The notes below the pieces were generated by a model. It was given only the letters and a program-made list of their open reading frames with translations, searched no databases and was not told the DNA's origin. A DNA stretch of 54,578 nucleotides from a virus (Duplodnaviria > Caudoviricetes). Below are positions 1 through 50,356 of this stretch, piece by piece. Location of the stretch: IMG/VR virus record IMGVR_UViG_3300025154_000124, positions 1 through 54,578 of that record; one strand, 5' to 3'. Numbering within the stretch: the stretch's first letter is position 1; each line of letters begins with the position of its first letter. A program made the position numbers and the translations under genes.

Positions 1-2
1 CC

Positions 3-1931
3 ATGGCAAAGGGTGGCGAAGACGGCCAAAAAGCTTTTATGGCTACCGTTGCTGCATTGGCTTCAATGGAAGATCCTATGGCGCAAAACGCAGCCGGTAC
101 CGCTCTTTTCGGTACCCAATGGGAGGACGTGCGGGCGAAGGTTATTATTGCCATGGCTGATGGCATAAAAGGCATTGGAGAATTCAAAGGGGCCACAGAT
201 TCAGCGGCCAAAGCTATGGACGATAACAACCCTGGTACGGCCTTAACATCGGCCATGCGCGAACTCCAAGCGGCCATTGGACCAGCGCTATTGCCCTTAG
301 CTGAAATTATAAAAAATACTATTGTGCCTGCAATTAAAGAGATGGCTAATTGGTTTACCGATTTGTCACCAGCGGGGCAAAAGGCTGCTCTTGCAATCGT
401 AGGCATTGCCGCTGCAATGGGTCCATTGCTAATGATCATAGGACCTATTATCTCAATTATTGGCAGTATAATCGGAGGACTTGGTGCAATGAGTCTTGCC
501 ATGGCCGGTGGAGCAACCGGAATAGGGATACTAACAACAGCTTTTCCGGCTATAGGCTCGGCCATAGCGGTGATTACAGGGCCAATCGGAATTGCCATTG
601 CCGTTATTGCTGGCTTAGCAGCATTAGCGTTAGTCGTTTATAAAAATTGGGAGCCTATAAAGGATTTTTTCGGCAATCTTTGGAATGGTATAGCCGCCAC
701 AATGTCAGCTGCTTGGAATGGCATTAAGCAGGCATTAAGCGATGCATGGACAGCTATTACCGATGGGCTCTCTGCTGCGTGGGAAGGCATAAAAAACACA
801 GCCGGTTCAGCGTGGAACGCGATAGTATCCGGTATAACCTCCACGATAACCTCTTTTGTTTCTAGCGCATTAGGCATGTTCACTGGTATGGGCGAATCCA
901 TAACTCCAATATTCGAGGGGATCAAAAACTACTTCTCGAATATCTGGGATATTATTAAAAACATATTCCTCGGAGCCCTCTTATTAATAGTAGACCTAGT
1001 AACAGGCGATTTCGAGGGGTTATCCACTGACGCGCAGGCAATTTGGAATAACCTCAAAGATGCATTCGGTCGAATATGGGAAGGCATCAAGCAGGGTTTT
1101 TTGATTGCACTAGATGCTATCAAAAACTTACTTGCACTTGCATGGGATACTATAACTGTCACACTAAAAACAGCGTGGGAGGACGTGAAAAACTACTTCG
1201 CTACACTCTGGGAAACCATTAAAACCACGGCAGCAGAGGCATGGGAAGGGTTTAAGACCACGATTATTACCACAACAACAACTCTTATTGACACAATAAA
1301 AAGTACATGGGAGTCAATCCTCGTATGGTTTACGACTCTCCCCGCAAGACTAAAGCAGTACGCGGTGGATATGTTTACGTCCATGAAAGATGGAGTAACA
1401 ACAACAGTTCCACAGGTCAAGGAATCGATTATTGAAGGTATTCAGGGGGCCTTAGACTGGATAATTGATCTACCGTCAAGGATGTTCAGTTATGGCGAAA
1501 ATATTGTCCAGGGTCTTGTTGATGGCATCAAGTCTATGATTGAAAATGTCGGTGAAGTTGTCGGAGGTTTAGCGGAAACGATTAAGAGCAAAATACGCGG
1601 TGCGCTTGAGATAAATTCTCCATCCAAGGTGATGATGAGGATAGGGGAGGGGGTCAGTGAAGGCCTTGCGCTCGGAATAGCTAACACGGTTGGCGAAGTT
1701 TCGCGGCAAGCGGATGCCTTGGCTGGCGCCGCGATACCAGATATTGATAATAATGGTTATGGTGGTGGCGCGAGTGGATCCGGAACAGCAGGATCTTCAG
1801 GGGGTAGCTCAATCGGTGCCTTACTACACGCTGATCAAGTAGTAATCGCCAACGACATGGATATCCAAGAACTAGCCAACAAGCTCGGCTTTTATTACCT
1901 GCAAGCAGTAGCGGCGAAGGGAGGGAGGTAA
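3..1931 (+). CDS. Tail tape measure protein, C-terminal part (5' end outside window)
   Basis: Ala/Gly-rich with periodic W/F repeats, a hydrophobic segment and a C-terminal INSPSKVM motif; lies directly upstream of Dit. Confidence 0.93.
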   Translation: MAKGGEDGQKAFMATVAALASMEDPMAQNAAGTALFGTQWEDVRAKVIIAMADGIKGIGEFKGATDSAAKAMDDNNPGTALTSAMRELQAAIGPALLPLAEIIKNTIVPAIKEMANWFTDLSPAGQKAALAIVGIAAAMGPLLMIIGPIISIIGSIIGGLGAMSLAMAGGATGIGILTTAFPAIGSAIAVITGPIGIAIAVIAGLAALALVVYKNWEPIKDFFGNLWNGIAATMSAAWNGIKQALSDAWTAITDGLSAAWEGIKNTAGSAWNAIVSGITSTITSFVSSALGMFTGMGESITPIFEGIKNYFSNIWDIIKNIFLGALLLIVDLVTGDFEGLSTDAQAIWNNLKDAFGRIWEGIKQGFLIALDAIKNLLALAWDTITVTLKTAWEDVKNYFATLWETIKTTAAEAWEGFKTTIITTTTTLIDTIKSTWESILVWFTTLPARLKQYAVDMFTSMKDGVTTTVPQVKESIIEGIQGALDWIIDLPSRMFSYGENIVQGLVDGIKSMIENVGEVVGGLAETIKSKIRGALEINSPSKVMMRIGEGVSEGLALGIANTVGEVSRQADALAGAAIPDIDNNGYGGGASGSGTAGSSGGSSIGALLHADQVVIANDMDIQELANKLGFYYLQAVAAKGGR

Positions 1932-4647: not shown

Positions 4648-5313
4648 ATGGGTTTGTATCAAGGCACTATGTATTCAGATTTAACTTCGATAGATTATTC
4701 TCAAATTAACGATCTTGTAGGGCAAGTTAAAAATGCGATTGTAGCTAATGTTCCATTCGTATCAGTCGTGTCTGACAATAATCCTACCGCGCCTACAAGT
4801 ACTCCAAGAGTTGTAGTGCTTTCTTTTGGCGATTGTTCTCATTATTTAAGGCTGGATGCCGTTGGTACAACTGTTGCCTACATTGGCATTAGAAATATTG
4901 CAAATAGCGCCTATTTACCTTCTACCGCAAGTATTGTGTTACAGAACTTTGCTCTTAAATTTGTGTATGGGCCTAACTCTTTTGGTAGTAATATAAATCA
5001 ATCAGGTACAGGCAATTGGATCTGGTATCTAAAAGGTAGTGATGGACATGTTTATTGTGGCCTAGGAAATAATTTTGTGTATTATTACAACACTGACGTA
5101 GCATGCATTATTAGTCGCCTTGGCTATGCACCATTAACTCCTTCAGGTGCGGCAATATTAACACCTCTTTGGATACTTAATGGAAGCGCTACAACTGGGT
5201 ATGCTCAACTACCTATGTATAGCAGTTTTCCTGGGGTATCAGGCAGTTTTTATACTGATGGTACAAATTACTATTATTGTATAAGCACTACATGTTTAGT
5301 GCAGGACGGTTAG
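4648..5313 (+). CDS. Hypothetical beta-rich protein in tail module
   Basis: 221-aa ORF with RBS; Tyr/Ser/Gly-rich; AT-rich relative to neighbours. Confidence 0.65.
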   Translation: MGLYQGTMYSDLTSIDYSQINDLVGQVKNAIVANVPFVSVVSDNNPTAPTSTPRVVVLSFGDCSHYLRLDAVGTTVAYIGIRNIANSAYLPSTASIVLQNFALKFVYGPNSFGSNINQSGTGNWIWYLKGSDGHVYCGLGNNFVYYYNTDVACIISRLGYAPLTPSGAAILTPLWILNGSATTGYAQLPMYSSFPGVSGSFYTDGTNYYYCISTTCLVQDG

Positions 5314-5389: not shown

Positions 5390-5956
5390 ATGGAACTCGA
5401 AAAGGAAAGCAAACTCATGGTCTCGCAGCCACGGCAACCGATCGGTAAATCGCAACTCTACACATTGCTCGTGGATGCGACCGGAGATCCGGTACTCGAC
5501 GTTGAGGGGAACAAGCAGGTTGTTGCACTGCAGTCCGTGGATGGTAAATTGCAGGTAACTGCGATCCTGGCTGCCAGCTCGGTAATAGCCGGTAAGTTTG
5601 GGATTGACCAGACTGCCGGACAGAATGTAGTGAGTTTTGGGGCTGCAGCACAGCCAGTTTCGATTACTGGAAGTTTAGCGAATATACCCGTCGAAATACA
5701 AGCATGTAAACCCGAAGTATCTTCTTCTCAAGATTCACAAATAGCCACAACTGCAAAGACATATGCCAGAGCCGAAGGTGCATCCCAAATAGAAGTGTAT
5801 GTAGAGTCTGGATATGCTCGGGTACGTACAGATGGTCAGCCCTGCACATCGACTACAGGTGAGCCTATCGCTTCGGGCTTTGGATCTGCTTGGCAAACTG
5901 GTTCAATTAGTATTTTCTACGTGCAGGAATCAATAGTAACGGTGGTGAGTAGGTAA
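5390..5956 (+). CDS. Putative tail/baseplate accessory protein
   Basis: 188-aa ORF with RBS; TAATG-coupled to the DGR target gene. Confidence 0.65.
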   Translation: MELEKESKLMVSQPRQPIGKSQLYTLLVDATGDPVLDVEGNKQVVALQSVDGKLQVTAILAASSVIAGKFGIDQTAGQNVVSFGAAAQPVSITGSLANIPVEIQACKPEVSSSQDSQIATTAKTYARAEGASQIEVYVESGYARVRTDGQPCTSTTGEPIASGFGSAWQTGSISIFYVQESIVTVVSR

Positions 5957-7311
5957 TGCTACAGCGTGACTTATTTCGCAAACAATTTGCCGTAGCAAGC
6001 GATGTGATAGTGCATGATGTGTATGGGGTATCATGGGATAAAACAGCATCCCCGATACTAACTCGCACGGATTCAGCCCTCGGATTAGTCGCTAACGCAG
6101 GGATAGGCAATGGAGTAGTCCAAAACGATTTTGACAACATACCCTTATTTAAAGCCATCCACGAGGTAACGGACGATTTGGGGAATGTGTTTATACGTAT
6201 ACCCAAATTCTACATCCGGAAAACAGACAGTGCAGGACTTAAAACCGTGCAAGTTTGTGGGACAAAAAGACCTGGCTTTTATCGTCCGTGGTGCTTTTGG
6301 GACTTTACGAACGGCAAGGAATTGCCCTATATCGACGTAGGAAAGCACAAGGCATCTCTGGGAGTTGGTAATAAGCTAGAATCAAAGCCCGACTTGTACC
6401 CGCTAATTAATAAAAACATCGTTGACTTTAGGACTTACGCTCGTAACAATAATGTCGATGGGGCAAAAGGGTACCAACAGTTAGATACCCACGTTATCGA
6501 TGTCCTGCAAACTTTGTTCAGGGTTGAATTCGCAACGTTAAATTCACAAGCAGTTATGCAGGGATTCACCGCTGGGCAATACACAGCCACACATTTGGCA
6601 ACTGTGGCCGAAGGTAACACTAACAGAATTGTCTTAGCAAACGCATACGCAGACCTCTACCGAGTTGGTCAGGCGATTTCCGTCGGAACATCACAAGGCG
6701 GCAACCAGATATTCTATGGACGGACAATAACGTCCATAGATGTTTACGACGCAAGTAACAAGGCAATTAGCTTCGACGGCACCCCTGTGAATATCGCTAT
6801 TGGCAACATGCTGTACAATACAGGGTGGAAAAACGGATTCGCCAGTGGCATAACAGCAACAAGCGGCAGTTTAGTTACTAACGATGGGAAGTACCCGTGC
6901 ACCTACCGAGGTATCGAATCTCCGCTTGGAGACGTGTGGCAGTTTGTCGATGGTTATAACATAAACGAGAGGCAAGCGTGGATTGCTAAAAACGCGGCAG
7001 ATTATGCCAGCAATGTCTTTGCTAGTCCGTATGAGCAATTAGGTTATGTAAACGGAGCGGTAGACGGCTATCCGAAGGAAATGGGATATGATCCAAACAA
7101 CCAATTTGCCGAGCTGCCATCTGTAGTAGGCGGTGCAAGTACAACGTATTACAGCGATTACTACTACCAGGCTACTGGGCAACGCATTGCCCTCTTCGGT
7201 GGTTCCTGGGTCTATGGCGCGAGTGCGGGCCTTTCGTACTGGAGCTTGGGCAATTCCTCGTCGTATGCGAGTGTGGGCGTCGGCGGGCGGCTTCTTAAGA
7301 AACCTCTTTAG
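5956..7311 (+). CDS. DGR target protein, probable receptor-binding/tail protein with C-terminal CLec-like variable domain
   Basis: VR lies at the 3' end. GIESPLGDVWQFVDG resembles the GNVWEW motif, and GGSW...GGRL matches the C-terminus typical of DGR CLec targets. Located in the tail module. Confidence 0.9.
   Translation: MLQRDLFRKQFAVASDVIVHDVYGVSWDKTASPILTRTDSALGLVANAGIGNGVVQNDFDNIPLFKAIHEVTDDLGNVFIRIPKFYIRKTDSAGLKTVQVCGTKRPGFYRPWCFWDFTNGKELPYIDVGKHKASLGVGNKLESKPDLYPLINKNIVDFRTYARNNNVDGAKGYQQLDTHVIDVLQTLFRVEFATLNSQAVMQGFTAGQYTATHLATVAEGNTNRIVLANAYADLYRVGQAISVGTSQGGNQIFYGRTITSIDVYDASNKAISFDGTPVNIAIGNMLYNTGWKNGFASGITATSGSLVTNDGKYPCTYRGIESPLGDVWQFVDGYNINERQAWIAKNAADYASNVFASPYEQLGYVNGAVDGYPKEMGYDPNNQFAELPSVVGGASTTYYSDYYYQATGQRIALFGGSWVYGASAGLSYWSLGNSSSYASVGVGGRLLKKPL
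7187..7290 (+). repeat. DGR variable repeat (VR)
   Basis: 104-nt ungapped match to 7382-7485 with 17 mismatches, each opposite an A in TR (11 A>G, 5 A>T, 1 A>C). Confidence 0.96.
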
Positions 7312-7316
7312 GGGGT

Positions 7317-7338
7317 TTGGGGGCGCGCACGCCTCCAA
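7317..7338 (+). other. GC-rich hairpin/cruciform downstream of VR/IMH
   Basis: TTGGGGGCG-CGCA-CGCCTCCAA: 9-bp stem with one G-T, 4-nt loop, just after the target stop codon. Confidence 0.75.
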
Positions 7339-7362
7339 TAAGGTAACGAGACAACAGAACAT

Positions 7363-7616
7363 AGGGATATAGGGTGCATGCTTGCCCACTTCGGTGGTAA
7401 CTGGAACAATGGCGCGAATGCGGGCCTTTCGTACTGGAACTTGAACAATTCCTCGTCGAATGCGAATGTGAACATCGGCAGGCAGACTCTTATTAGAAAC
7501 TTTCAAAACTATTTGCATCCTATATTCCTCACCCCTTGGTGGAAATTTCGCCGCGAAGAACAGGGATTAGTAGGTTTCTCGAAATTCCCTGAGGCTAATA
7601 AGAAGGTAGGAATTTT
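7363..7616 (+). ncRNA. Predicted structured DGR template RNA (TR plus flanks)
   Basis: 7363-7378 pairs with 7514-7529 (16 bp, two G-U). A further stem is CAGGGA/TCCCTG at 7561-7591. Ends are approximate. Confidence 0.6.
7382..7485 (+). repeat. DGR template repeat (TR)
   Basis: AAC/AAT-rich copy of VR with 25 adenines; diverges from VR at non-A positions from 7487 (IMH vs IMH*). Confidence 0.96.
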
Positions 7617-8681
7617 GTGAAACGGGTAGGTTATCTCTTTGAAAAAGTGTGTGAGCTTGAAAATATAAAGCAAGCAATCATTAAGTCATCTCTCGGAAAA
7701 AGAAACCAAAAGAGGGTCAAGTATGTCATGGATAACATGGATACACATGCAGTTAAAATACGAAATTTGTTGTTAGATAAGAAGTATATCCCGTCTCCGT
7801 ATGACGTTAAAACAATCCAAGATGGAGCCACGAAAAAGACTCGCACTATCCATAAGCCCCGATATTTCCCGGATCAAATTATTCATTGGGCACTAATGCT
7901 GCAACTTCAACCGGTGATCATGAAAGGTATGTATGAATTTAGCTGCGGAAGCATTCCTGGAAGAGGTACTAGTTATGGGCAGAAGATTTTGAGGAAGTGG
8001 CTGGATACCGATTATAAGGGTACCAAGTATTGCCTCAAGATGGATATATCTAAGTTTTACCCTTCGGTCGATAATGAAATCCTGAAAGAGATGTTCAAGA
8101 AAAAGATCAAGGATGGTGATTGCCTGTGGTTAATTGATAGCATCATAGACAGTGCCGATGGGTTGCCAATAGGTAACTATACAAGCCAGTGGTTCTCGAA
8201 TTTCATTCTACAAGGCCTAGATCATTACATCAAAGAAAAGCTAGGCGTGAAATATTATGTGAGGTATGTCGATGATCTAGTTCTACTTGGAAGCAACAAG
8301 AAGAAATTACACCTTGCGAGGAAAATGATCTCCGAACACCTCAATAGTATAGGCTTGCAGCTCAAGGGGAATTGGCAGGTTTCTAAGGTTAGCGATAGGG
8401 ATATCGACTTCTTAGGGTTTAGGTTTTTTAGAGATAAAACCATCCTGAGAAAGCGAAATGCTCTAAGAATTCGTCGCAGAATAAAGAAAATCGGCAGGAA
8501 AAGGGAATTAAGCCTTAAAGATGCTTGCGCGGTCATATCGTACTGGGGATGGATCAAGAGAAGTAACAGTTTTAACTTTTACAATAAACACGTTAAGCCA
8601 ACGATCAGCGTTGGGCGTGCTAAGAAAGTGGTGAGCATATATGCCAGACGAGAAGCCATACGTTTACGCTCCGATTTTTGA
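7617..8681 (+). CDS. DGR reverse transcriptase
   Basis: KMDISKFYPS, GLPIGNYTSQ (DGR-type GxxxSQ), YVRYVDD and IDFLG motifs; 354 aa, basic; no maturase/endonuclease domain. Confidence 0.95.
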   Translation: MKRVGYLFEKVCELENIKQAIIKSSLGKRNQKRVKYVMDNMDTHAVKIRNLLLDKKYIPSPYDVKTIQDGATKKTRTIHKPRYFPDQIIHWALMLQLQPVIMKGMYEFSCGSIPGRGTSYGQKILRKWLDTDYKGTKYCLKMDISKFYPSVDNEILKEMFKKKIKDGDCLWLIDSIIDSADGLPIGNYTSQWFSNFILQGLDHYIKEKLGVKYYVRYVDDLVLLGSNKKKLHLARKMISEHLNSIGLQLKGNWQVSKVSDRDIDFLGFRFFRDKTILRKRNALRIRRRIKKIGRKRELSLKDACAVISYWGWIKRSNSFNFYNKHVKPTISVGRAKKVVSIYARREAIRLRSDF

Positions 8682-8826
8682 GTTTGACCAATTAACGCAG
8701 TATCTTACGCAAATACCACCCGTTGACATGGGAGATCATTATTTTGTTGGTATTGCCGTAATGACAGCGTCTTCGGTTTTTGATGATGAGCTTGAGGATT
8801 TACTATTAGCCGAAATGGGGGCCTAA
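8641..8826 (+). CDS. Small hypothetical protein (possible tail-fibre assembly-type)
   Basis: 61-aa acidic ORF overlapping the RT 3' end. Confidence 0.5.
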   Translation: MPDEKPYVYAPIFEFDQLTQYLTQIPPVDMGDHYFVGIAVMTASSVFDDELEDLLLAEMGA

Positions 8827-8829
8827 ATA

Positions 8830-8997
8830 ATGACGAGAGATGAGTTTTTAACTAAAATGCTCGAAAAAGGTAAAGTTACGCAAGCGCAAGCCAATAGAAT
8901 TAAGGCAAAAGATTCCGCAAAAGAAACTTATCGTAAAGATAAAGCAAAGATGAACAAAAGCGAGATACAGGGTGTATTGGATACCTTATTGAGCTAA
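8830..8997 (+). CDS. Small basic hypothetical protein (55 aa, MTRDEFLTKMLEKGKVTQ...)
   Basis: Translated by hand; tight spacing to the previous gene; resembles small post-tail-fibre (XkdX-like) genes by position. Confidence 0.5.
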   Translation: MTRDEFLTKMLEKGKVTQAQANRIKAKDSAKETYRKDKAKMNKSEIQGVLDTLLS

Positions 8998-9027: not shown

Positions 9028-9189
9028 GTGTGTAGTAATGTAATCGGTATTTGCGAGCACCTTCTGGAGTTAATCGACACGCAGGAAAGCACGATAGCAA
9101 AGCAAAATGAGATAATCGCGAGGCTTATGAACGAGGGTTTTGAGCAGGAGAATCTAATAAAGGTGCTGATGCGAGAACGCGGCGAATAA
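9028..9189 (+). CDS. Small coiled-coil hypothetical protein (53 aa)
   Basis: GTG start after AAAGGGGA; translated by hand. Confidence 0.5.
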   Translation: MCSNVIGICEHLLELIDTQESTIAKQNEIIARLMNEGFEQENLIKVLMRERGE

Positions 9190-16351: not shown

Positions 16352-18757
16352 CTATTTGGCAGCGTTCTTTTCATCACCTCCTTTACTAGTAATCGGCGCT
16401 GGAAGGTGGGTGACGAACTTGGCATAGTTATCGTTGCACTTTATCAAGTTCAGGCTGTGGTAACGCTTTAAGCTCAGTAAATCCTCTTCAGTGTATGGGT
16501 ATAATTCACTTTTTAACTCATCGAAGTTCTTCTTATCGCTACCACTTATTAGCATATACGATGCGTTTGCGGTCCGTAGGTCCTCCCGGATCTGTTTGAT
16601 TTGATTTAAGTAATGGCAGCTTATAATAGGCTTCAGGTTAAATTTCGGGAGTTGGCTTAACTTCTTCGCTAGGAATTTCTCGGCGTTTCTAACCTGGTAT
16701 AACTCATCGATCTCTAAGTTAACCTTCGTCATTTTTGACCTATCCAGATTTTGCGCCTCAAATTGAGATTCCCGAATCTGTAGTGCCAGCCATATTTTAG
16801 TTAGCCAGTATGTTACATACACATCCCGCTCGTTGTCAGTCAGAAACATCCTCTGCGGCATCTTAATAACAATTAACTGATTCTCCTGGATCTCCTTTAC
16901 TAGATCGATGTTGTTTTCGCTGCCTTTTTTCAACATCGTTTCAAGGTAGGCGTTAACCTTTAGCTTCTGCAGCCGGTCGACTGCACCAGTGATTAGGTGC
17001 ATCCGGGTACCGACTACTTTACCCTTTTCAATAGTGTCCAACTCATGTAGGTAGCCAAGGTATTCCTCCATGTTTTCCGCCTGTTCTTTGGGTACCCGAT
17101 CAATAAATTCCTTACGTACTTTATAATTCATCAGTACCGCAAACACGTCCTTAATATTGCCGTTGGTTAGGAAAACGGTTAACGCAGCGCTCTCGAAATA
17201 CCTCCCCATCCTAGCGGTAAAATTAGCGTCATCCGCGTTTATGCTGTCCACCAATGTCATCAATAGAGCGGTCTGCTCTTTGGCGTTCTTATATTGGACA
17301 AAGGGATCTATGCTCGGCGGGACTTCGTTGTACCCCAAGCCTTGAAGGGTGTCCCAGTTATCGCACCGGAGCTCTAGTACTTTTTCCTGAGGGAATGCGC
17401 TGGCAATCTCGGTGCTTAATTGGCAGCTGCCTATATAGTCGGGGATAATAACGCACTCCCCAGCCTCGATAGCGTCTTTAGCTATGTTTGCCAAGAACTT
17501 AGATTTGCCGGCGCGATTCGGGCCAATTAAGACAAGTCCTAACATTCTGTACTCAGGGTCAGTACTCAAATAACTTTTTTGGCTAGTACCTTTAAACGTA
17601 TTAGTACCTACGCACATAACCCCGGTAAGAAGTTCTTCGGGTACTTCCGATTCAAGCGTTCCGATCCGTTCGATGAACTTGTGCTTCTCCAGTAGCTCCC
17701 TACCCGGTAGCGCGATAAAATTAGAGCACTCATTTTCACTAGCCTTGAAGGATGTGGCACCCCTTATTCTAGTGCCTAACGGATTAAACTTACCATACAA
17801 ACGCTTATGGGTTAAAGAGTTATCCTCCGTGATCGTATCAAAGCTCTGGGCAAGACTCTTGGCATTGTTGTACTGCCGCATCTTATCCTTGCTTTCGCTT
17901 AGCACTAAAATTTGAGTATCCAGGACCATGCTTTTACCCTTGGACAGGGTGTATTCGGATATGATCTTGGTATTTCTAAGACTAGAGATAATCTGATCAA
18001 ATACTTCGTATTCCTTTGACCGAATCGCCTTTTTGTTTTCCCCAGCAAGGATTGCGCTCGCACTGTTAATAAGACCGTTTAATTGAGTGAAAGCCCATTT
18101 AAGCAGGTATCCTACGTTCGCTACATTTTGGTCAACCGGTAGATCGCTACGCAACTTCGCTATGGTTTTCTTATACTTAGTAGGCCACGAAAATTGGGAC
18201 GTAGGAATAAAGTTATAAAATATCCCTACCTTGTCGCCATCCTCCATGATGTCCACGATGTTAAGATTTGCCTCTAGTAGGTCATTATTGCGTTTGTCTA
18301 CGGCCAGACTTAAGCCGTCTTCCTTGCGATAAAACAGATGATACTTGGTTGCGGAATCCCCAAATGCGGGGATCGTGACTATATCGGCAACAGGTTTTGC
18401 CGTGAGTCCTTTCCAAGTGCTGGATAGCTTCTCTTGTAAAATGCTCGAGTATTGCTTAGGGACAATAAAGTAGAACTCGATACGCTTCTTTTCAATGTAT
18501 ATAAAGTAGGAAACTTTAGGTGCCGTGGCTATCGAATACTTAGTACCAAGCATAAATTCCCTGCCAAGGATAGTAATAAGCTTTCCGTGTTCAACCTTGA
18601 TGCTTCGCTTAATGTCTCGGTACAAAGATCCTATGGTCGTAGCGATATTAGCCGTGGCATTGTTTAATATAGAGTTGTTAGGCGTTAGCTTGATATACAT
18701 ATACTCGGGATGAACGAGGGTAATAAACTTGCTGAACTTAACGGATTTAGATTTCAT
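16352..18757 (-). CDS. VirB4/TraG/HerA-FtsK superfamily P-loop ATPase
   Basis: Walker A GPNRAGKS, Walker B LEIDELYQ; 801 aa with a long N-terminal region. Confidence 0.75.
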   Translation of the reverse strand: MKSKSVKFSKFITLVHPEYMYIKLTPNNSILNNATANIATTIGSLYRDIKRSIKVEHGKLITILGREFMLGTKYSIATAPKVSYFIYIEKKRIEFYFIVPKQYSSILQEKLSSTWKGLTAKPVADIVTIPAFGDSATKYHLFYRKEDGLSLAVDKRNNDLLEANLNIVDIMEDGDKVGIFYNFIPTSQFSWPTKYKKTIAKLRSDLPVDQNVANVGYLLKWAFTQLNGLINSASAILAGENKKAIRSKEYEVFDQIISSLRNTKIISEYTLSKGKSMVLDTQILVLSESKDKMRQYNNAKSLAQSFDTITEDNSLTHKRLYGKFNPLGTRIRGATSFKASENECSNFIALPGRELLEKHKFIERIGTLESEVPEELLTGVMCVGTNTFKGTSQKSYLSTDPEYRMLGLVLIGPNRAGKSKFLANIAKDAIEAGECVIIPDYIGSCQLSTEIASAFPQEKVLELRCDNWDTLQGLGYNEVPPSIDPFVQYKNAKEQTALLMTLVDSINADDANFTARMGRYFESAALTVFLTNGNIKDVFAVLMNYKVRKEFIDRVPKEQAENMEEYLGYLHELDTIEKGKVVGTRMHLITGAVDRLQKLKVNAYLETMLKKGSENNIDLVKEIQENQLIVIKMPQRMFLTDNERDVYVTYWLTKIWLALQIRESQFEAQNLDRSKMTKVNLEIDELYQVRNAEKFLAKKLSQLPKFNLKPIISCHYLNQIKQIREDLRTANASYMLISGSDKKNFDELKSELYPYTEEDLLSLKRYHSLNLIKCNDNYAKFVTHLPAPITSKGGDEKNAAK

Positions 18758-21209: not shown

Positions 21210-22427
21210 TTAGAGGTTTTTCATGAGTTCGCTGAACTTTTTGGAGGCCTCTTTTTTCATTGTTTTTGTGGTATGCATATAGACGTATCTTGTTGTTTTA
21301 TCATCTTTATGACCGAGCCTCTCCATAATCTCCGGGAGGCTGACGCCCGCCTCAGCAAGTAAAGAAGTGTGGGTATGTCGTAATGAGTGGGGGGTCAACG
21401 ATGCGTTCAAGCTAGCGAGCTTTAACAGGCGACACATGCGTCTTTCTATGAAATTAGTAGTCTCTGGATAACCAAGAAATTTATCCTCCTGTGCAAATAT
21501 GAAATCCTTATCATGGTAAGAATCCCTGTTTTTCATGAGTGTAATATTTTGGCTTGACTTGTGCTTTTTTAACTCTTCTAAAACAACTCCATCAACGGAA
21601 ATTTTCCTTTTAGATGCCTTTGTCTTCGGTGGAGATAATTCGTAGGCCGTCGCCTTGTTGGTTGGATTGTAGTAAGTCTTGGTGATGTTGACGCTACCTT
21701 CGATAAAATCAATGTCTTTCCATTTCAGTGCACATAGCTCCCCTATTCTCACGCCTGTGTACGCCAAAAATAGAAAAATCAGATAATCCTTATCTAATCC
21801 TTTATCATTGGCAGTTTGCAGAAAAAGGGATAACTCGTCTTTTTCTAGATACTTCTCTATTTCCTCTTCCTCCTCTAACTCCTCGATCGTTTTAGTTGTT
21901 TTCGGCACTGCAGCATACCTAGTCGGGTCATTCTTGATTAACTCAAGTTCTACAGCTTTATTAAATATCATGCGTCCTGTTGTGTGCGCTCCTATGATTG
22001 AGCTTTCTGAAAATCCCCTATCTTTTAAGGTAATTAGGGCATCTTGGTATTGCTTGCGTGTTACATCTTTTAATTTTAGTTTTGCAAAGAAAGTCTTTAT
22101 TCTTGCAATCTCAATCTCCCTGACCCTAATCGTACTCTTCTTTTTGGGTTTGCCTGTGTTTTTGTAATAGCCTAGCCATTCCTTGGAAAATTGCTCGAAC
22201 GTGATATTTGACTCCTTAACATAAGTTCCTTGCTCCACTTCTTGAATCACTATACCGCATGCAAGTTGCGCAGCCTTCTTTGTTTTGAAGCCTCCTTTCT
22301 TCTCCTGCTTACGGTCTCCTGTGCTTGGATCGACGCCAACATCAACGATATACGACCAGGTTGCACCACAGCTACATTTCTTTTTGTCAGAGCAGATACA
22401 CTTTGGCCTGTAATAATATCCTTGCAT
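21210..22427 (-). CDS. int: Tyrosine integrase
   Basis: N-terminal arm-binding domain (GGFKTKKAA); TGVRIGE, HSLRHTH and LGH...T..VY catalytic motifs. Confidence 0.96.
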   Translation of the reverse strand: MQGYYYRPKCICSDKKKCSCGATWSYIVDVGVDPSTGDRKQEKKGGFKTKKAAQLACGIVIQEVEQGTYVKESNITFEQFSKEWLGYYKNTGKPKKKSTIRVREIEIARIKTFFAKLKLKDVTRKQYQDALITLKDRGFSESSIIGAHTTGRMIFNKAVELELIKNDPTRYAAVPKTTKTIEELEEEEEIEKYLEKDELSLFLQTANDKGLDKDYLIFLFLAYTGVRIGELCALKWKDIDFIEGSVNITKTYYNPTNKATAYELSPPKTKASKRKISVDGVVLEELKKHKSSQNITLMKNRDSYHDKDFIFAQEDKFLGYPETTNFIERRMCRLLKLASLNASLTPHSLRHTHTSLLAEAGVSLPEIMERLGHKDDKTTRYVYMHTTKTMKKEASKKFSELMKNL

Positions 22428-30863: not shown

Positions 30864-31781
30864 ATGTCAGTAAAGGAAACGAAAGCCCAAGAACAGTCTC
30901 AGGAAATCGCACTTTTAGGTGACGGAGCCGTATTTGTAAAACGGACCGCCTCTGGCCTTGTCAAGGCTGTTAAGGCTCAAATAAAACTTGAGGAGAAGAA
31001 AGGCCATCTCGCGGAAATTCAAGGGAAGGTGATGGTCACCGGAGCCGGATACAACGAAATGAATAAGGTTGCAGGGGTTTCTGTTATCACTCCCGAGAAA
31101 TTAACCTTGCCGGATGGATCGGTGGTTGTTAATCCATACCCTATCGTAGATCCTGTTTCGGGAAGTATCTCAAAAGTTTGGGTTAAAAAGATGGCAATCG
31201 GCTTAAGCCCAATTGGCAATCTAGTTATCACCACTTCCACCCTGCTTTATGATATCCAAATGTATTTCATTCAGGACCTTATGAAAAAGATTAAAAAAAA
31301 TTCTATTGCTGGTCGACTTTGCATGGAATCCATGCTGACAGATCAGGACAGATTGAAAGGAATGTTTTGCCGAATTGAAGGTGAAATGGGAATTTGGGCG
31401 GACATTAATAACATAGATACAATGACCTGCATTGAGACATTCATACAAAACAAGCTCTTTGCTGAACGAAAAGCCCAAACCATTGCCGAACGCAATGCAA
31501 TGAAGAAACATCCTGCGCTTGCAACAACCTTAGTTGTTCCAACCGGACCGGAAAAGGCCAGAACTGCCGTTGTTAACGTGGTTGGATTCTCCCATGATTT
31601 TTCCCAGCAAGAACTATTAGATATTGCCCAAAAAGCATCCGACGGAGAACCGATCACAGTGAACAACAAAAAGGTTGAGGTCGTTGATATCTCATCCAGC
31701 GAACTTACCGAAGAAGATTTGGCAACCAGTACTGATGAGGAAGAAAATACAGAAGGCTCAAGTGGGGGTGATCTTCTTTGA
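30864..31781 (+). CDS. Putative DNA recombination/annealing protein
   Basis: First gene of the SbcC-UvrD cluster; acidic C-terminal tail; family not recognised. Confidence 0.4.
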   Translation: MSVKETKAQEQSQEIALLGDGAVFVKRTASGLVKAVKAQIKLEEKKGHLAEIQGKVMVTGAGYNEMNKVAGVSVITPEKLTLPDGSVVVNPYPIVDPVSGSISKVWVKKMAIGLSPIGNLVITTSTLLYDIQMYFIQDLMKKIKKNSIAGRLCMESMLTDQDRLKGMFCRIEGEMGIWADINNIDTMTCIETFIQNKLFAERKAQTIAERNAMKKHPALATTLVVPTGPEKARTAVVNVVGFSHDFSQQELLDIAQKASDGEPITVNNKKVEVVDISSSELTEEDLATSTDEEENTEGSSGGDLL

Positions 31782-33982
31782 TCACAGCGATAACCATGCG
31801 CAACTTCAAGGGCCAGATGGAGTCGCAAAAGTTAACTGGTAAAGACATCTTCGTCGGCCCAAATGGCAAGGGTAAGACGACTCGGTTACAAGCTGTCGGT
31901 ATTGCCCTCCTTGGTTACGTACCCGGCAAGGGCAAATTGCCAGCTGAGACGTTTAAATTAGCCAGTGCGGATAATATGTCAGTTGGGCTTGTGACTGATA
32001 ATCTGACATTTGCCCGTACCTTTACGAGGACGGAAAAGAGCGGTAAGGATGGGGCTAGTAACGTTACAGTCTCCCAAGACATTACCTTATCACCCAGTCG
32101 GGGCGAAAAGAAGGCAGTGGAGAAAGAAGCGCGGATTGCCTTCGAGGTTGGAAACTTTCCGGTAATGCTGGATTTTAATGAGTTCCTTTCCTTGTCAGAC
32201 TCAAAACGTCGGGATTTTATCTATGGATTATCGGCTATCAAGACGGATTCGTGGGATCGCACCAAAGTCGAGAAACACATAAGGACTAAACTCCTCACAT
32301 TGGATCTCGAAGTAAATAATCCTGATCAATACCAAATCATGAGCGGACTCATAGTGGACGCAATGAAGGAATATCCGGAACACGATGACATTCAGGCCGG
32401 ATTACAGTCGATGATCGAATGGGCCAAAGCTAAGCAGACCCACTGGAACGATGAGAAGAAGAATGCTGTTGGTGCTGTCAAGAAGTTGGCCGACATGAAG
32501 AATCAGCTGGAAGAAACCGACCGTAATATCGTGCAGCACAAAGCCGAATTAGAGCAGCTGCAGCAACAGCTTACTGACAGTGAAAGTCAACTCGCTAGAG
32601 ATCGAGAACGAAAACGTGCAATTGATCAGCGCCTTGTTAGGATAAGTGAACTCGGGACAATGATTGAAACGCTGTCTAAGAGTCAGGCTGAACCTGCAGT
32701 TAATTATGACCTGATGATTACGGAGCTCCGAGGACAGATCAAAGAGTTTGACTTTAAGGCAACGTTCGCCAGATTTGATCAAGAATTGCAAGCATTAACC
32801 AATCAGCTCAAAGAGGCAAGGGAACAGGATCGAGCCACCATCACTGCATTAGCCCAAATCCAGGCGGAAAAAACGGTACTTAATTCGACCTTAAAGCAGA
32901 TCGATGAGCAGTCAAAGAAAAATGGCTCCGGCAGGGTCTGTGTTATTCATCCCAAGATTGGATGCGACAAGGATTTTAGCAAGGCAGCGACAGTCTTTAG
33001 TCAACAGCTCGTTGTATTGGAGCAAAGAGAAGCCGACCAAAAGGCTGTACAAAAGGAAGTAAGGATTCGGATCGAAGGCCTTGAAACCGGTAAAAACGAC
33101 ATCGATGCGCAACGTACAGAGACGCATAAAAATCAAACGACCTTGAATCAGGTGAACGAGGAAACTAGAAAATCGATTGCTAATCTAGAGAAGAAAAAAG
33201 CAGATGAGGTCAACGCTGCAGCGCGAATCAGCGACCAGCTGAAGATGTACCAGGACGAATTGACTAGGATTAAGAGTTTACCACCCGAGGTGATCGCCCC
33301 CTTGGATATCTTGGAGAAACAAAGCGAAGGGCGTAGGGCGCAGATCAAGGAGCTCAAGGTCAAGCTAGAGGGGCAAGAGAAGGCCAAGATTACGCTGAGT
33401 AGTCTTAAGTCCACGATGATCGACTCCAAGACTGCAAATTATAATGCGCAGTGCATAAAGGACCTTGCTGAGTCCCTGGGCGCAAAAGGCCTACAAGGCG
33501 AGCTAGTGAAAGGGATACTTGAGCCGATACGCTCTGATATTCAAACGAATCTTGAACTTATGGGAATTGACAGTGAATTTTACTTTTCGACGGAATCTGA
33601 TACCGGCAAAGAAGTGTTCCAATTTGGCTGGAAGAATAGCCATGGTGACGAACGCAACTTTGATGCTCTGAGCACTGGGCAACAACTGATTCTTTTAATT
33701 GCAATGCTTGTTACCTTCTTGGAAAGATCTAATCCACCACTTAAAGTTTTAGCGATCGACAATATAGAGAATCTTGATCCGAGGAATTTATGTCGGGCCT
33801 TGGTTGGCATGAACAAACTCTCGAGTAAGATCGATAACATTATCCTTTCTGGAGTGGTCGATGTTTATCGGAGTAAGTGGATTGACGGTCAAGAAGTTAG
33901 GACACCGCTTCCGGAATTGGAAGGCTGGGGAGTAACAGACTTAGGTATTGAGGAGGTGAAGACAGATGCCAGGATGTTATAA
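31778..33982 (+). CDS. SbcC/Rad50-like ABC ATPase with long coiled coil
   Basis: NFKG, Walker A GPNGKGKT, coiled coil with central CVIHPKIGC, signature LSTGQ, Walker B LAIDNIE. Confidence 0.85.
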   Translation: MITAITMRNFKGQMESQKLTGKDIFVGPNGKGKTTRLQAVGIALLGYVPGKGKLPAETFKLASADNMSVGLVTDNLTFARTFTRTEKSGKDGASNVTVSQDITLSPSRGEKKAVEKEARIAFEVGNFPVMLDFNEFLSLSDSKRRDFIYGLSAIKTDSWDRTKVEKHIRTKLLTLDLEVNNPDQYQIMSGLIVDAMKEYPEHDDIQAGLQSMIEWAKAKQTHWNDEKKNAVGAVKKLADMKNQLEETDRNIVQHKAELEQLQQQLTDSESQLARDRERKRAIDQRLVRISELGTMIETLSKSQAEPAVNYDLMITELRGQIKEFDFKATFARFDQELQALTNQLKEAREQDRATITALAQIQAEKTVLNSTLKQIDEQSKKNGSGRVCVIHPKIGCDKDFSKAATVFSQQLVVLEQREADQKAVQKEVRIRIEGLETGKNDIDAQRTETHKNQTTLNQVNEETRKSIANLEKKKADEVNAAARISDQLKMYQDELTRIKSLPPEVIAPLDILEKQSEGRRAQIKELKVKLEGQEKAKITLSSLKSTMIDSKTANYNAQCIKDLAESLGAKGLQGELVKGILEPIRSDIQTNLELMGIDSEFYFSTESDTGKEVFQFGWKNSHGDERNFDALSTGQQLILLIAMLVTFLERSNPPLKVLAIDNIENLDPRNLCRALVGMNKLSSKIDNIILSGVVDVYRSKWIDGQEVRTPLPELEGWGVTDLGIEEVKTDARML

Positions 33983-34115
33983 ATGCGGAACCCAACAAAA
34001 GGTTTTAATAAGCCTCACGACCACTCTTCCTGATACCAAAGGAAAGCCTCAAATTGGTTCTTATGCTCTTTGCGATAAATGCGCCGAAGATCATAAGGAG
34101 GATGCCAAGAAATGA
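33966..34115 (+). CDS. Small zinc-finger-like protein (49 aa)
   Basis: CYKC...CDKC; GAGGAGGTG RBS; ATGA-coupled to the helicase. Confidence 0.5.
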   Translation: MPGCYKCGTQQKVLISLTTTLPDTKGKPQIGSYALCDKCAEDHKEDAKK

Positions 34116-49904: not shown

Positions 49905-50356
49905 TGTTTATGGCTAATAGCAAATGGCCAAAGGTACAAGATATGTTATTACTCGTTAGGAAATGGGCAAGAGACGGACTTACTGAGGAACAAATTTGTA
50001 AAAATCTTGGCATAAGCAAAAGCACCATGAACGAATACAAAAAGCAGCATCCAGACTTTCTGAATGCCCTAAAAAGGGGAAAAGAAGTTATCATTACCGA
50101 AATTGAGAATGCATTGATCAAACGGGCACTGGGTTACGATTTCGAAGAAATAAAAACTTCCATAAGAATGATCGGCGGAAAGGAAACCAAATACACTGAA
50201 AAAACCAGAAAGCATATACCGCCCGACGTGGGGGCTTGTGCCATATTGCTTAAAAATAAGGATCGTGGTAATTGGAGTGATAACCCAATGAAGTTAGACA
50301 TCGAAAGAGAGTTTTTAGAACTTCGCAAGCGGATCGAGGAGGATAAGTTGTTTTGA
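49898..50356 (+). CDS. Terminase small subunit-like HTH protein
   Basis: WARDGLTEEQI..LGIS.ST..YK..HP.F..ALKRGKE..IENAL.KRA.GY...PD..A...LKN. Confidence 0.72.
   Translation: MVMFMANSKWPKVQDMLLLVRKWARDGLTEEQICKNLGISKSTMNEYKKQHPDFLNALKRGKEVIITEIENALIKRALGYDFEEIKTSIRMIGGKETKYTEKTRKHIPPDVGACAILLKNKDRGNWSDNPMKLDIEREFLELRKRIEEDKLF

What the first reader, a model, noticed from the sequence alone, without database searches (positions are those of the whole stretch)
5956..8681. Complete DGR diversifying a phage tail protein
Seen: VR 7187-7290 and TR 7382-7485 align without gaps over 104 nt. All 17 mismatches are at TR adenines (17 of 25 As changed), mostly in AAC/AAT codons. VR stays open and in frame, a hairpin follows it, and an intact GxxxSQ/YVDD RT lies downstream. 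Established: this is the adenine-specific mutagenic retrohoming signature of Bordetella BPP-1-type DGRs. Inference: it drives receptor/host switching, with up to 4^25 possible nucleotide variants.
Basis: partly seen in the sequence, partly recalled or inferred. Interest (0 to 1): 0.85.

Follow-up and report, generated by a model that had tools for sequence, protein, structure and literature searches.

The report
Avd-less phage DGR, complete cassette
This is a real, intact diversity-generating retroelement in a temperate phage of Gram-positive bacteria that rewrites the tip of a tail protein; it belongs to a known, common kind, but its RNA layout shows how the version without the usual helper protein may work.

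Summary
VR 7187-7290 and TR 7382-7485 align without gaps; all 17 mismatches sit on TR adenines (17 of 25 A; chance 8e-14). The target ORF (5956-7311) folds with high confidence and best matches TaqVP, a solved DGR variable protein. The RT (7617-8681) carries IGxxxSQ and YVDD. It matches the Bordetella DGR RT best by sequence and by fold.

It is not BPP-1-like in layout. No Avd gene was found, and the order is target-TR-RT, the known accessory-free 'Architecture A'. The TR-RT spacer is the Rfam motif RT-18, not BPP-1's Phage_DGR RNA.

Two covarying long-range helices were found:
- one closes the TR;
- one pairs the TR 3' end with the RT-18 tail.
They parallel BPP-1's stop and template:primer duplexes.

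Near-identical relatives differ almost only at TR-adenine positions of the VR, so the clade is active. Diversification of this phage itself was not seen: contigs of three runs are identical.

Verdict: a genuine DGR, a new member of a known kind, of moderate interest.

The parts
5956..7311 (+). DGR target gene (451 aa), a tail or receptor-binding protein with a C-terminal C-type-lectin-like variable domain
   Evidence: ORF. It matches phrog_5302 'tail protein' at E 1.4e-50. It has no Pfam, NCBIfam or PDB sequence hit. AF2 gives pLDDT 93.1 and pTM 0.90. The best PDB fold match is 5vf4, TaqVP, a DGR variable protein (E 2.4e-12, prob 1.0); PvdO, Mtd and TvpA follow weakly. BFVD gives 'tail collar fiber' proteins with TMq up to 0.89.
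7187..7290 (+). Variable repeat (VR), codons 411-445 of the target
   Evidence: 17 of 17 mismatches to the TR lie at TR adenines.
7279..7299 (+). Putative IMH: the GC-rich 3' end of VR, which differs from the TR end (IMH*, about 7474-7496)
   Evidence: The VR/TR alignment ends here. It has A>N differences up to 7291, a non-A difference at 7292, then divergence. The same VR-end versus TR-end difference is seen in L087. The boundaries are my estimate.
7317..7338 (+). GC-rich inverted repeat (hairpin or cruciform) downstream of VR
   Evidence: 9-pair stem with a 4-nt loop. As a single sequence it is not significant (z -1.47). A hairpin with at least 5 G-C pairs lies within 70 nt after VR in 58 of 78 family loci, against 0 of 78 after TR. 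No T-run follows, and it is not listed as terminator-like.
7364..7378 (+). 5' arm of the TR-closing helix; pairs with 7514-7528
   Evidence: 15 consecutive pairs in the window. In 31 aligned relatives the two parts of this helix have 84.8% and 73.5% of cells paired, and 9 of 15 pairs change on both sides.
7382..7496 (+).
   Evidence: TR is unchanged (0 differences) in most near-identical locus pairs whose VRs differ.
7514..7528 (+). 3' arm of the TR-closing helix
7530..7605 (+). RT-18 RNA motif (Rfam RF03021), the spacer RNA between TR and RT. Its 3' tail 7596-7603 pairs with TR 7488-7495.
   Evidence: 65.6 bits against a gathering score of 41.3, E 1e-11, full-length model match. The same motif lies in the same place in 24 of 27 related loci and in phage LBR48. 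For the tail:TR helix, 85.5-87.9% of cells are paired and 7-8 pairs change on both sides; 0 of 500 shuffles reach this, and slid controls give 39-66%.
7617..8681 (+). DGR reverse transcriptase (354 aa, GTG start)
   Evidence: Pfam RVT_1 and phrog_1423 at E 8e-107. The best PDB sequence match is 8ub7 at E 4.6e-27, against 1e-14 for group-II-like RTs and 6e-5 for retron Ec86. AF2 gives pLDDT 94.4. The best fold match is 8ub7_A, the 'DGR ribonucleoprotein reverse transcriptase', with TMq 0.85, TMt 0.91 and rmsd 2.1 A. Motif residues R76, D143, I185, G186, S190, Q191, D219 and D220 align with bRT R74, D138, I181, G182, S186, Q187, D215 and D216.

Best explanation
This is a functional, accessory-free (Avd-less) diversity-generating retroelement of a temperate siphovirus-like phage of Bacillota.

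Proposed mechanism:
1. The late tail operon is transcribed through the target gene into TR, the RT-18 spacer and the RT gene.
2. In the RNA, a 15-bp helix (7364-7378 with 7514-7528) closes the TR into a loop.
3. RT-18 folds just downstream. Its conserved 3' tail (7596-7603) pairs with the 3' end of TR (7488-7495).
4. This places an adenosine of the tail (A7603 or A7604) as a cis-primer. TR C7487 would be the first template base.
5. The RT copies TR into cDNA faithfully except opposite adenines.
6. The cDNA replaces VR (7187-7291) in the target gene. Direction comes from the IMH end of VR and the GC hairpin at 7317-7338, which TR lacks.
7. The outcome is up to about 4e14 variants of 15 surface codons of the lectin-like tip of a tail protein. 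This most likely changes which host surface ligand the phage binds.

Shown here: the adenine-specific TR/VR pattern, the RT clade and fold, the target fold, the conserved hairpin, RT-18, both covarying helices, and adenine-site VR turnover in relatives.

Inferred: transcription, the priming nucleotide, Avd-independence, the homing steps and the receptor-switching role.
For: - TR/VR: 17 of 17 mismatches on TR adenines, 0 of 79 non-A positions changed, P 7.9e-14. No stop codon is reachable, and there are 10 AAY codons.
- RT: nearest by sequence and by fold to the solved Bordetella DGR RT. It has the [I/V/L]GxxxSQ signature and the R74 and I181 equivalents that promote adenine mutagenesis (PMC7826257 passages). 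In a 30-sequence tree it sits with BPP-1 Brt, hankyphage and VP58.5 RTs. Three group II RTs are separated by a branch with 100% SH-aLRT.
- Target: its fold matches TaqVP.
- Family: across 77 related loci, 1227 of 1326 VR/TR mismatches (92.5%) lie at TR adenines. These loci had been chosen for at least 70% adenine bias, so the figure is selected.
- Activity in the clade:
  - L042/L043: 3 differences in 3509 nt, all at TR-A sites of VR (also 3 in 7056 nt).
  - L059/L074: 22 differences in 2349 nt, 19 at TR-A sites of VR, 3 at other VR sites, 0 outside.
  - L131/L132: 17 of 21 at TR-A sites.
  - TR is unchanged in all three pairs.
- Hairpin: a GC hairpin follows VR in 58 of 78 loci and follows TR in 0 of 78.
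- RNA: RT-18 lies between TR and RT. Over 39 pairs, 85.1% of cells are paired against 71.6 +/- 0.7 in shuffles (0 of 500) and 41-44% when slid. 28 pairs change on both sides.
- Boundary: the predicted first template base, C7487, lies directly 3' of the last adenine-type difference, TR A7486.
Against: - No diversification of this element itself was seen. Contigs of runs X1, X2 and X4 (one study, probably the source of the record) are identical to the window over 5956-8681. Contigs drop minority variants, so the test is weak.
- The X5 relative's differences within VR were not displayed.
- One related pair (L073/L086) has 54 differences outside VR and none inside it. Turnover is therefore not constant.
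- Several relatives have lost the RT, so the module is dispensable.
- Avd-independence rests on absence of evidence. The Pfam Avd model found nothing in the window or in 5 related records. It also missed the proven Avd of BPP-1, although it found that of VP58.5. phmmer with both of those Avd proteins gave nothing under E 0.3.
- The record is about 70% complete.
- Single-sequence folding energies are not better than shuffles: hairpin z -1.47, TR plus spacer z +0.87.
- The priming nucleotide is assigned only by analogy with BPP-1.
Confidence: 0.85

Rival explanations
1. The cassette is a recently silenced or rarely firing DGR. All parts look intact, but the VR is frozen in this phage population and no longer switches receptors.
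For: VR is identical in the contigs of three runs. The pair L073/L086 shows 2.3% divergence with an unchanged VR. Relatives show clear decay. L008 keeps the IMH and half the hairpin fused to the last 36 codons of the RT. L005, L006, L015 and L029-L032 have the target gene but no RT ORF on the same strand within the fetched flank. Phage LBR48 appears to hold a single TR-like repeat.
Against: Zero of the 79 non-adenine positions differ between VR and TR. The RT ORF, the catalytic residues, RT-18 and both long-range helices are intact. A long-silent element would gather non-A differences and breaks. The three runs may be one data source, and contigs hide minority variants.
Confidence: 0.12
2. The element is an active DGR but is not self-sufficient. 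It needs an accessory protein that these searches did not recognise: a divergent Avd-like protein, another phage protein in the missing 30% of the genome, or a host factor.
For: Avd proteins are 'very poorly conserved' (PMC5758913, passage). The Pfam model missed BPP-1 Avd in my control. The record is about 70% complete. In BPP-1, Avd is needed to position the template:primer duplex (preprint 10.1101/2023.10.23.563531, passages).
Against: There is no room for a gene between VR, TR and RT (gaps of 84 and 120 nt). The ORFs after the RT are 61, 55 and 53 aa. The 61-aa ORF is acidic (pI 4.1) and persists next to the target gene in RT-less relatives, so it is not DGR-linked. No Avd hit was found in a 100%-complete relative with terminal repeats or in the complete LBR48 genome. 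Wu et al. report 75 of 372 DGRs without accessory genes and a whole RT lineage without avd (PMC5758913, passages). The RT is very basic (pI 10.0), and its C-terminal 70 residues reach pI 11.4.
Confidence: 0.25
3. It is not a DGR: a chance or recombinational duplicate of the gene's 3' end lying next to an unrelated RT (group II intron, retron or defence RT).
For: NCBIfam's best-scoring models for the RT are group II RT/maturase (89.8 bits) and retron St85 (71.4 bits). That library returned no DGR-RT model among its hits.
Against: Both scores are far below their cut-offs of 300 and 235. The mismatch pattern has P 7.9e-14. The RT is closest to the DGR RT 8ub7 by sequence and by fold. It carries SQ rather than the SP of group II and retroviral RTs. 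Rfam found no group II intron or retron RNA in 7100-7800, only RT-18. The whole layout recurs in dozens of loci.
Confidence: 0.01

Closest known systems
Bordetella phage BPP-1 DGR (mtd-avd-TR-brt), the prototype
   Same: - Adenine-specific TR-to-VR transfer into the C-terminal lectin-fold tip of a tail protein.
- An RT of the same clade and fold (30% identity; TMt 0.91 to 8ub7).
- A GC-rich inverted repeat after VR.
- A structured spacer RNA between TR and RT.
[quoted passage not shown] In BPP-1 these are the cPRT Stop duplex and the TR117-129:Sp47-56 template:primer duplex (preprint 10.1101/2023.10.23.563531, passages).
   Different: - No avd gene; in BPP-1, bbp7/avd lies between VR and TR.
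- The spacer is Rfam RT-18, while BPP-1's is RF03022 Phage_DGR.
- The target shows no sequence similarity to Mtd, and the fold match to Mtd is weak (E 0.03-0.08).
- The host is Gram-positive.
Accessory-free DGRs: 'Architecture A' (TR-RT core, 75 of 372 DGRs) and the avd-less 'Lineage 3' of Wu et al. 2018 (PMC5758913, passages read; supplementary tables not seen)
   Same: The order target-TR-RT on one strand, with no avd, HRDC, MSL or CH1 gene, and a lectin-type VR at the C-terminus.
   Different: I could not check whether this RT falls in their Lineage 3, or which CLec class the VR belongs to. Their trees and tables are in supplements that were closed.
Lactobacillus phage LBR48 (GU967410) and Butyrivibrio phage Arawn (NC_048848) RT loci, the nearest isolated phages
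   Same: The RTs are 53% and 42% identical. The synteny is the same: tail genes, target, RT, small ORFs, holin or lysin. LBR48 has RT-18 upstream of its RT.
   Different: LBR48 shows only one TR-like, Asn-rich repeat, and the target frame ends early. That record contains N bases. Arawn has no RT-18 hit at the gathering score. No paper in the library links LBR48 to its RT.
TaqVP, Thermus aquaticus DGR variable protein (PDB 5vf4)
   Same: It is the best solved-structure match of the target model: E 2.4e-12, prob 1.0, TMq 0.45, TMt 0.53.
   Different: 16% identity and rmsd 11 A over the whole chain, so domain arrangement differs. TaqVP is cellular, not a phage tail protein.
Rfam RF03021 RT-18 RNA (Weinberg et al. 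2017, PMC5737381, passages read)
   Same: A full-length match above the gathering score. That paper describes the RT-1 to RT-19 motifs as lying near RT genes. It says RT-10 is the BPP-1 TR-RT spacer and speculates that other RT motifs serve other DGRs.
   Different: Rfam models the 3' tail of RT-18 as unpaired. Here the tail pairs with the TR 3' end, with covariation. The main text of that paper does not mention RT-18 by name (0 occurrences).

Membership tests
Diversity-generating retroelement (DGR) | A TR/VR repeat pair whose differences are confined to adenines of the TR | tested here: met
   17 of 17 mismatches lie at TR adenines and 0 of 79 non-A positions differ; P 7.9e-14.
Diversity-generating retroelement (DGR) | An adjacent RT of the DGR clade with the [I/V/L]GxxxSQ motif and YxDD | tested here: met
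   IGNYTSQ (185-191) and YVDD (217-220). The best PDB sequence and fold match is the DGR RT 8ub7. In the tree it lies with BPP-1, hankyphage and VP58.5 RTs, apart from group II RTs. No retron RT was in the tree.
Diversity-generating retroelement (DGR) | VR inside an open reading frame, usually C-terminal, in a C-type-lectin-type fold that tolerates variation | tested here: met
   VR covers codons 411-445 of 451 and is in frame. The AF2 model best matches TaqVP; PvdO, Mtd and TvpA appear lower in the list.
Diversity-generating retroelement (DGR) | IMH at the VR end differing from IMH* at the TR end, with a GC-rich inverted repeat after VR only | tested here: met
   The ends diverge after 7291/7486. 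The hairpin lies at 7317-7338. It is conserved after VR in 58 of 78 loci and after TR in 0 of 78.
Diversity-generating retroelement (DGR) | The accessory protein Avd (present in about 74% of DGRs, so not universal) | tested here: not met
   PF05635 gave no hit at E <= 1 in the window or in 5 related records. phmmer with the BPP-1 and VP58.5 Avd proteins gave nothing under E 0.3. There is no space for a gene inside the cassette. Caveat: the Pfam search missed BPP-1's own Avd.
Diversity-generating retroelement (DGR) | A structured non-coding spacer RNA between TR and RT that can pair with the TR 3' end | tested here: met
   RT-18 at 7530-7605. A covarying helix joins TR 7488-7495 and the tail 7596-7603, and a second helix closes the TR.
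Diversity-generating retroelement (DGR) | Observed adenine-site variation of VR with an invariant TR among otherwise identical genomes | tested here: inconclusive
   For this phage there is one VR in the contigs of 3 runs, probably its own source. For relatives the feature is met: L042/L043, L059/L074, L131/L132 and others.
Group II intron RT/maturase | Protein reaches the family model cut-off; intron RNA domains flank the ORF | tested here: not met
   TIGR04416 scores 89.8 bits against a cut-off of 300. Rfam found no group II intron RNA in 7100-7800. The motif reads SQ, not SP.
Retron | A retron-type RT with an adjacent msr/msd RNA | tested here: not met
   NF038233 scores 71.4 bits against a cut-off of 235. 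Retron Ec86 RT gives E 6e-5 by sequence and TMq 0.51-0.55 by fold, against 0.85 for the DGR RT. No retron RNA family was hit.
Rfam RF03021 (RT-18 RNA) | Covariance-model score at or above the gathering threshold over the full model | tested here: met
   65.6 bits against 41.3, model positions 1-84 of 84.

The most novel reading that the evidence does not exclude
The RT-18 clade would be a natural two-component diversifier: one RT plus one RNA, with no Avd.

The RNA would do the positioning work that Avd does in BPP-1. It would combine the TR-closing helix, the RT-18 fold, and a pseudoknot-like duplex between the TR 3' end and the RT-18 tail that sets an adenosine as cis-primer. The very basic C-terminal part of the RT may assist.

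If so, RT-18 is the first Rfam 'RT motif' other than RT-10 to receive a defined role, and the hankyphage's RT-3 probably has the same role. This cassette of about 1.3 kb would then be the smallest self-contained DGR core.
Probability: 0.45. Interest if true: 0.6.

Novelty: new member of a known kind. Interest (0 to 1): 0.38.

Why it matters
As a DGR it is ordinary. Surveys list phage DGRs that target tail proteins in Firmicutes phages, and they name groundwater as a DGR-rich habitat (PMC8144416, passages). Accessory-free cassettes are already 29% of one curated set (PMC5758913).

Its value lies in being a clean example of the Avd-less type, with many relatives for comparison. Those relatives show active VR turnover. 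They also show that the known but unassigned RT-18 RNA is the TR-RT spacer of this clade. Finally, they reveal two covarying long-range helices that mirror the stop and template:primer duplexes solved for BPP-1.

The published conservation analysis of those RNA elements covered only DGRs with Avd (preprint 10.1101/2023.10.23.563531, methods passage). How Avd-less DGRs prime and limit cDNA synthesis therefore remains open. This locus gives exact nucleotides to test.

Tried and rejected
- **Phage DNA search.** blastn of the cassette against GenBank phages found nothing. Only protein-level relatives exist there.
- **Exact TR search.** A 51-nt TR search in IMG/VR found no other record. No near-identical sister of this phage could be compared.
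- **Read laying.**
  - Only Logan contigs were on offer.
  - X1, X2 and X4 are identical to the window and may be its source.
  - X5 holds a relative with 35 differences over 5956-6887 and 138 over 6964-8678. The output was cut at 7026 (123 rows not shown), so its VR could not be read.
- **Close metagenome relative.** L087, listed at 91% for its best segment, is only 80% identical in DNA. It was useful for the RNA comparison but not as a near-identical pair.
- **Single-sequence folding.** Neither the hairpin nor TR plus spacer stood out from shuffles. Support for structure comes from the comparisons only.
- **Wide duplex test.** A broad-window RNA duplex energy test of TR end against spacer tail was noisy. 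The cognate mean was -13.1 and the non-cognate mean -12.1 kcal/mol; 1 of 1000 permutations was as low. I rely on the column counts instead.
- **Small ORFs after the RT as accessory genes.** Rejected. The 61-aa ORF occurs in 28 loci, including RT-less ones. The 55-aa ORF occurs in 2 loci and the 53-aa ORF in 10.
- **Avd searches.** Searches were negative. The control shows that the Pfam search is insensitive.
- **RT-less relatives.** I searched only plus-strand ORFs of at least 50 aa in the fetched flanks. An RT elsewhere in those genomes is not excluded.
- **Tree limits.** The RT tree used 30 of about 90 available RTs, the quick method and no retron sequence. It shows separation from group II RTs only.
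- **Selected tally.** The tally of 77 loci used loci pre-filtered for at least 70% adenine bias. L013, which has 18 of 28 mismatches at A, and others were dropped by that filter.
- **Hairpin counts.** The 78 loci include near-identical ones, so they are not independent.
- **Literature.**
  - No paper links RT-18 with DGRs: 'RT-18' with 'retroelement' gave 0 papers, and RT-18 had 0 occurrences in the papers listed.
  - 'LBR48' with 'reverse transcriptase' gave 0 papers.
  - Supplements were closed. Wu et al.'s tables and trees and Weinberg et al.'s motif files may already show some of this.
- **Papers seen.**
  - Passages only: PMC5758913, PMC5737381, PMC7826257, PMC8144416 and 10.1101/2023.10.23.563531.
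  - Abstract and outline only: PMC6182149.

Full report
**1. The observation**

VR 7187-7290 and TR 7382-7485 lie 195 nt apart and align without gaps. The 17 mismatches all have A in the TR (A>G 11, A>T 5, A>C 1). They use 17 of the TR's 25 adenines. None of the 79 other positions differs. The repeat finder reports the pair independently. The chance that 17 mismatches all land on the 25 A positions is 7.9e-14.

The window is a whole IMG/VR virus record of 54,578 nt, estimated 70% complete. It holds only this one VR, one TR and one RT.

The VR is in frame in codons 411-445 of a 451-codon ORF. The TR holds 10 AAY codons plus CAC, TAC, ATC, AGG and CAG. 13 of the 17 changes fall in AAY codons. 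No adenine substitution can make a stop. The coding space is 1.1e15 nucleotide or 4.4e14 protein variants.

**2. The proteins**

*Reverse transcriptase.* The RT (7617-8681, 354 aa) matches Pfam RVT_1 and phrog_1423.
- By sequence, its best solved relative is 8ub7 (E 4.6e-27). Group-II-like RTs follow at about 1e-14 and retron Ec86 RT at 6e-5.
- An AF2 model (pLDDT 94.4) superposes best on 8ub7_A, titled 'DGR ribonucleoprotein reverse transcriptase', with TMq 0.85, TMt 0.91 and rmsd 2.1 A. Group II RTs give TMq 0.76 and retron RTs 0.51-0.60.
- It carries IGNYTSQ and YVDD. Alignment to BPP-1 Brt puts R76, I185 and Q191 opposite R74, I181 and Q187. R74 and I181 promote adenine mutagenesis, and [I/V/L]GxxxSQ is the DGR signature (PMC7826257, passages).
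- NCBIfam models for group II, retron and DRT RTs all score far below their cut-offs.
- In a quick tree of 30 RTs it lies in a clade with LBR48 and metagenomic relatives. That clade sits inside a group holding BPP-1 Brt, hankyphage and VP58.5 RTs. Three group II RTs are split off by a branch with 100% SH-aLRT. No retron RT was included.

*Target.* The target has no Pfam, NCBIfam or PDB sequence match, but it matches phrog_5302 'tail protein'.
- With 44 homologues it folds at pLDDT 93.1.
- Its best solved match is TaqVP, the Thermus DGR variable protein (E 2.4e-12). PvdO, Mtd and TvpA appear lower in the list.
- Among predicted viral structures it matches 'tail collar fiber' proteins with TMq up to 0.89.

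*Context.* The gene order is: tape measure (cut by the record start), Dit, Tal-like endopeptidase tail protein, two unknown ORFs, target, TR, RT, three small ORFs, XhlA-type holin, amidase. An integrase lies at 21210-22427 on the other strand. This is a temperate siphovirus-like phage. Related prophages lie in Bacillota, namely Alkalihalobacillus sp., Clostridia and Bacilli MAGs.

**3. The family and its activity**

Target relatives: 44 viral and 25 genomic loci encode one. RT relatives: 80 metagenomic loci were kept of 230 found.

Most loci with enough flank show the same layout, with the TR end about 118-130 nt before the RT start.

Near-identical pairs give direct evidence of mutagenic homing:

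| Pair | Total differences | At TR-A sites of VR | Other VR sites | Outside VR |
|---|---|---|---|---|
| L042/L043 | 3 in 7056 nt | 3 | 0 | 0 |
| L059/L074 | 22 in 2349 nt | 19 | 3 | 0 |
| L131/L132 | 21 | 17 | 2 | 2 |

TR is unchanged in these pairs.

Against constant activity, L073/L086 differ at 54 sites outside VR and none inside it.

For this phage itself, contigs from three runs of one study (probably its source) are identical to the window. A fourth run holds a diverged relative whose VR differences were not shown.

**4. Not the BPP-1 layout**

BPP-1 has avd between VR and TR. Here the VR-TR and TR-RT gaps are 84 and 120 nt, and no Avd was found:
- The Pfam Avd model found nothing in the window, in five related records (one 100% complete) or in LBR48.
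- The same search missed BPP-1's own Avd, although it found that of VP58.5. It is therefore weak evidence.
- phmmer with both Avd proteins was also negative.
- The 61-aa ORF after the RT recurs in 28 loci, including RT-less ones, so it is an ordinary phage gene.

Wu et al. describe this accessory-free 'Architecture A' in 75 of 372 DGRs. They also describe an RT lineage without avd (PMC5758913, passages).

**5. DNA and RNA elements**

*Hairpin.* A GC hairpin (7317-7338) follows the stop codon. A comparable hairpin follows VR in 58 of 78 loci and follows TR in none. Its flanking pairs vary while the G5/C5 core stays. No T-run follows it.

*Spacer RNA.* The TR-RT spacer is Rfam RT-18 (65.6 bits against 41.3).
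- RT-18 lies in the same place in 24 of 27 related loci and in LBR48. The misses are L104, L108, L122 and phage Arawn; all four lie outside the 18-row clade that holds the window's RT.
- The equivalent spacer is RF03022 Phage_DGR in BPP-1 and RT-3 in the hankyphage.
- Weinberg et al. tied only RT-10 to a DGR and speculated about the other motifs (PMC5737381, passages).

*Long-range helices.* In unfitted MAFFT alignments of 31 loci I found two.
- Helix A: 7364-7378 pairs with 7514-7528 (15 bp) and closes the TR.
- Helix B: TR 7488-7495 pairs with the RT-18 tail 7596-7603 (8 bp). It crosses helix A.

Counted together with the RT-18 stems, the result was as follows:

| Measure | Value |
|---|---|
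| Pairs counted | 39 |
| Cells paired, observed | 85.1% |
| Cells paired, shuffles | 71.6 +/- 0.7% (0 of 500 reach the observed value) |
| Cells paired, slid controls | 41-44% |
| Pairs that change on both sides | 28 |

Helix B alone gave 87.9% of cells paired, and 8 of 9 pairs changed on both sides.

[quoted passage not shown] That study's conservation survey used only Avd-containing DGRs (preprint 10.1101/2023.10.23.563531, passages).

By analogy, A7603 or A7604 would prime and C7487 would be the first template base. This fits the last adenine-type difference at TR 7486. The assignment is an inference.

**6. Verdict**

It is a new member of a known, common kind, and the accessory-free type was already described. 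I saw no diversification in this phage itself.

The added value is the RNA architecture of the Avd-less RT-18 clade, which makes its priming mechanism testable.

Noticed in passing
L008:4240-4450 (relative of the window's 7250-8681): A deletion scar. The target gene keeps its IMH-like end and the 5' half of the GC hairpin. These are fused directly to the last 36 or so codons of the RT, so TR, RT-18 and most of the RT are gone.
   Followed up: partly
L005, L006, L015, L029, L030, L031, L032 (relatives): These loci have full-length target homologues (52-69% identity) but no RT ORF on the same strand in the fetched flank. In L005, L006 and L032 the 61-aa ORF homologous to window 8641-8826 follows the target directly. 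The TR-RT module thus behaves as an insertion/deletion unit of about 1.3 kb.
   Followed up: partly
L153:540-830 and L162 (Lactobacillus phage LBR48, GU967410): This nearest isolated phage has RT-18 and an intact RT. I found only one Asn-rich TR-like repeat and no separate VR, and the target frame stops just before that repeat. The record has N bases here and a 41-nt terminal repeat, so this may be a collapsed cassette or a sequencing problem.
   Followed up: partly
L159:409-558 (Bacteroides hankyphage p00): The Rfam motif RT-3 (146.6 bits) fills the gap between the annotated DGR template repeat and the RT. RT-3 therefore looks like another clade-specific DGR spacer RNA.
   Followed up: no
window 8641-8826, 8830-8997, 9028-9189: Three small ORFs (61, 55 and 53 aa) lie between the RT and the holin, with no family match. 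The first overlaps the RT's 3' end by 41 nt, is acidic (pI 4.1) and is conserved in 28 related loci.
   Followed up: partly
window 4648-5313 and 5390-5956: Two ORFs (221 and 188 aa) lie between the Tal-like tail protein and the DGR target. They have no Pfam, PHROG or NCBIfam match. The 188-aa one has a single relative among the fetched loci (L129, 40% identity).
   Followed up: no
window 31778-33982, 34112-36964, 38149-39774, 50353-51591, 16352-18757(-): Other large genes: a 734-aa protein of unknown function (phrog_32642), a 950-aa helicase, two DNA methyltransferases (one fused to a ParB-like domain), and an 800-aa protein of unknown function (phrog_5156) on the minus strand near the integrase.
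   Followed up: no
window 1-1931: The tape-measure gene runs off the start of the record and no head genes were seen. This agrees with the 70% completeness estimate. The record may be a cut prophage or a permuted fragment.
   Followed up: no
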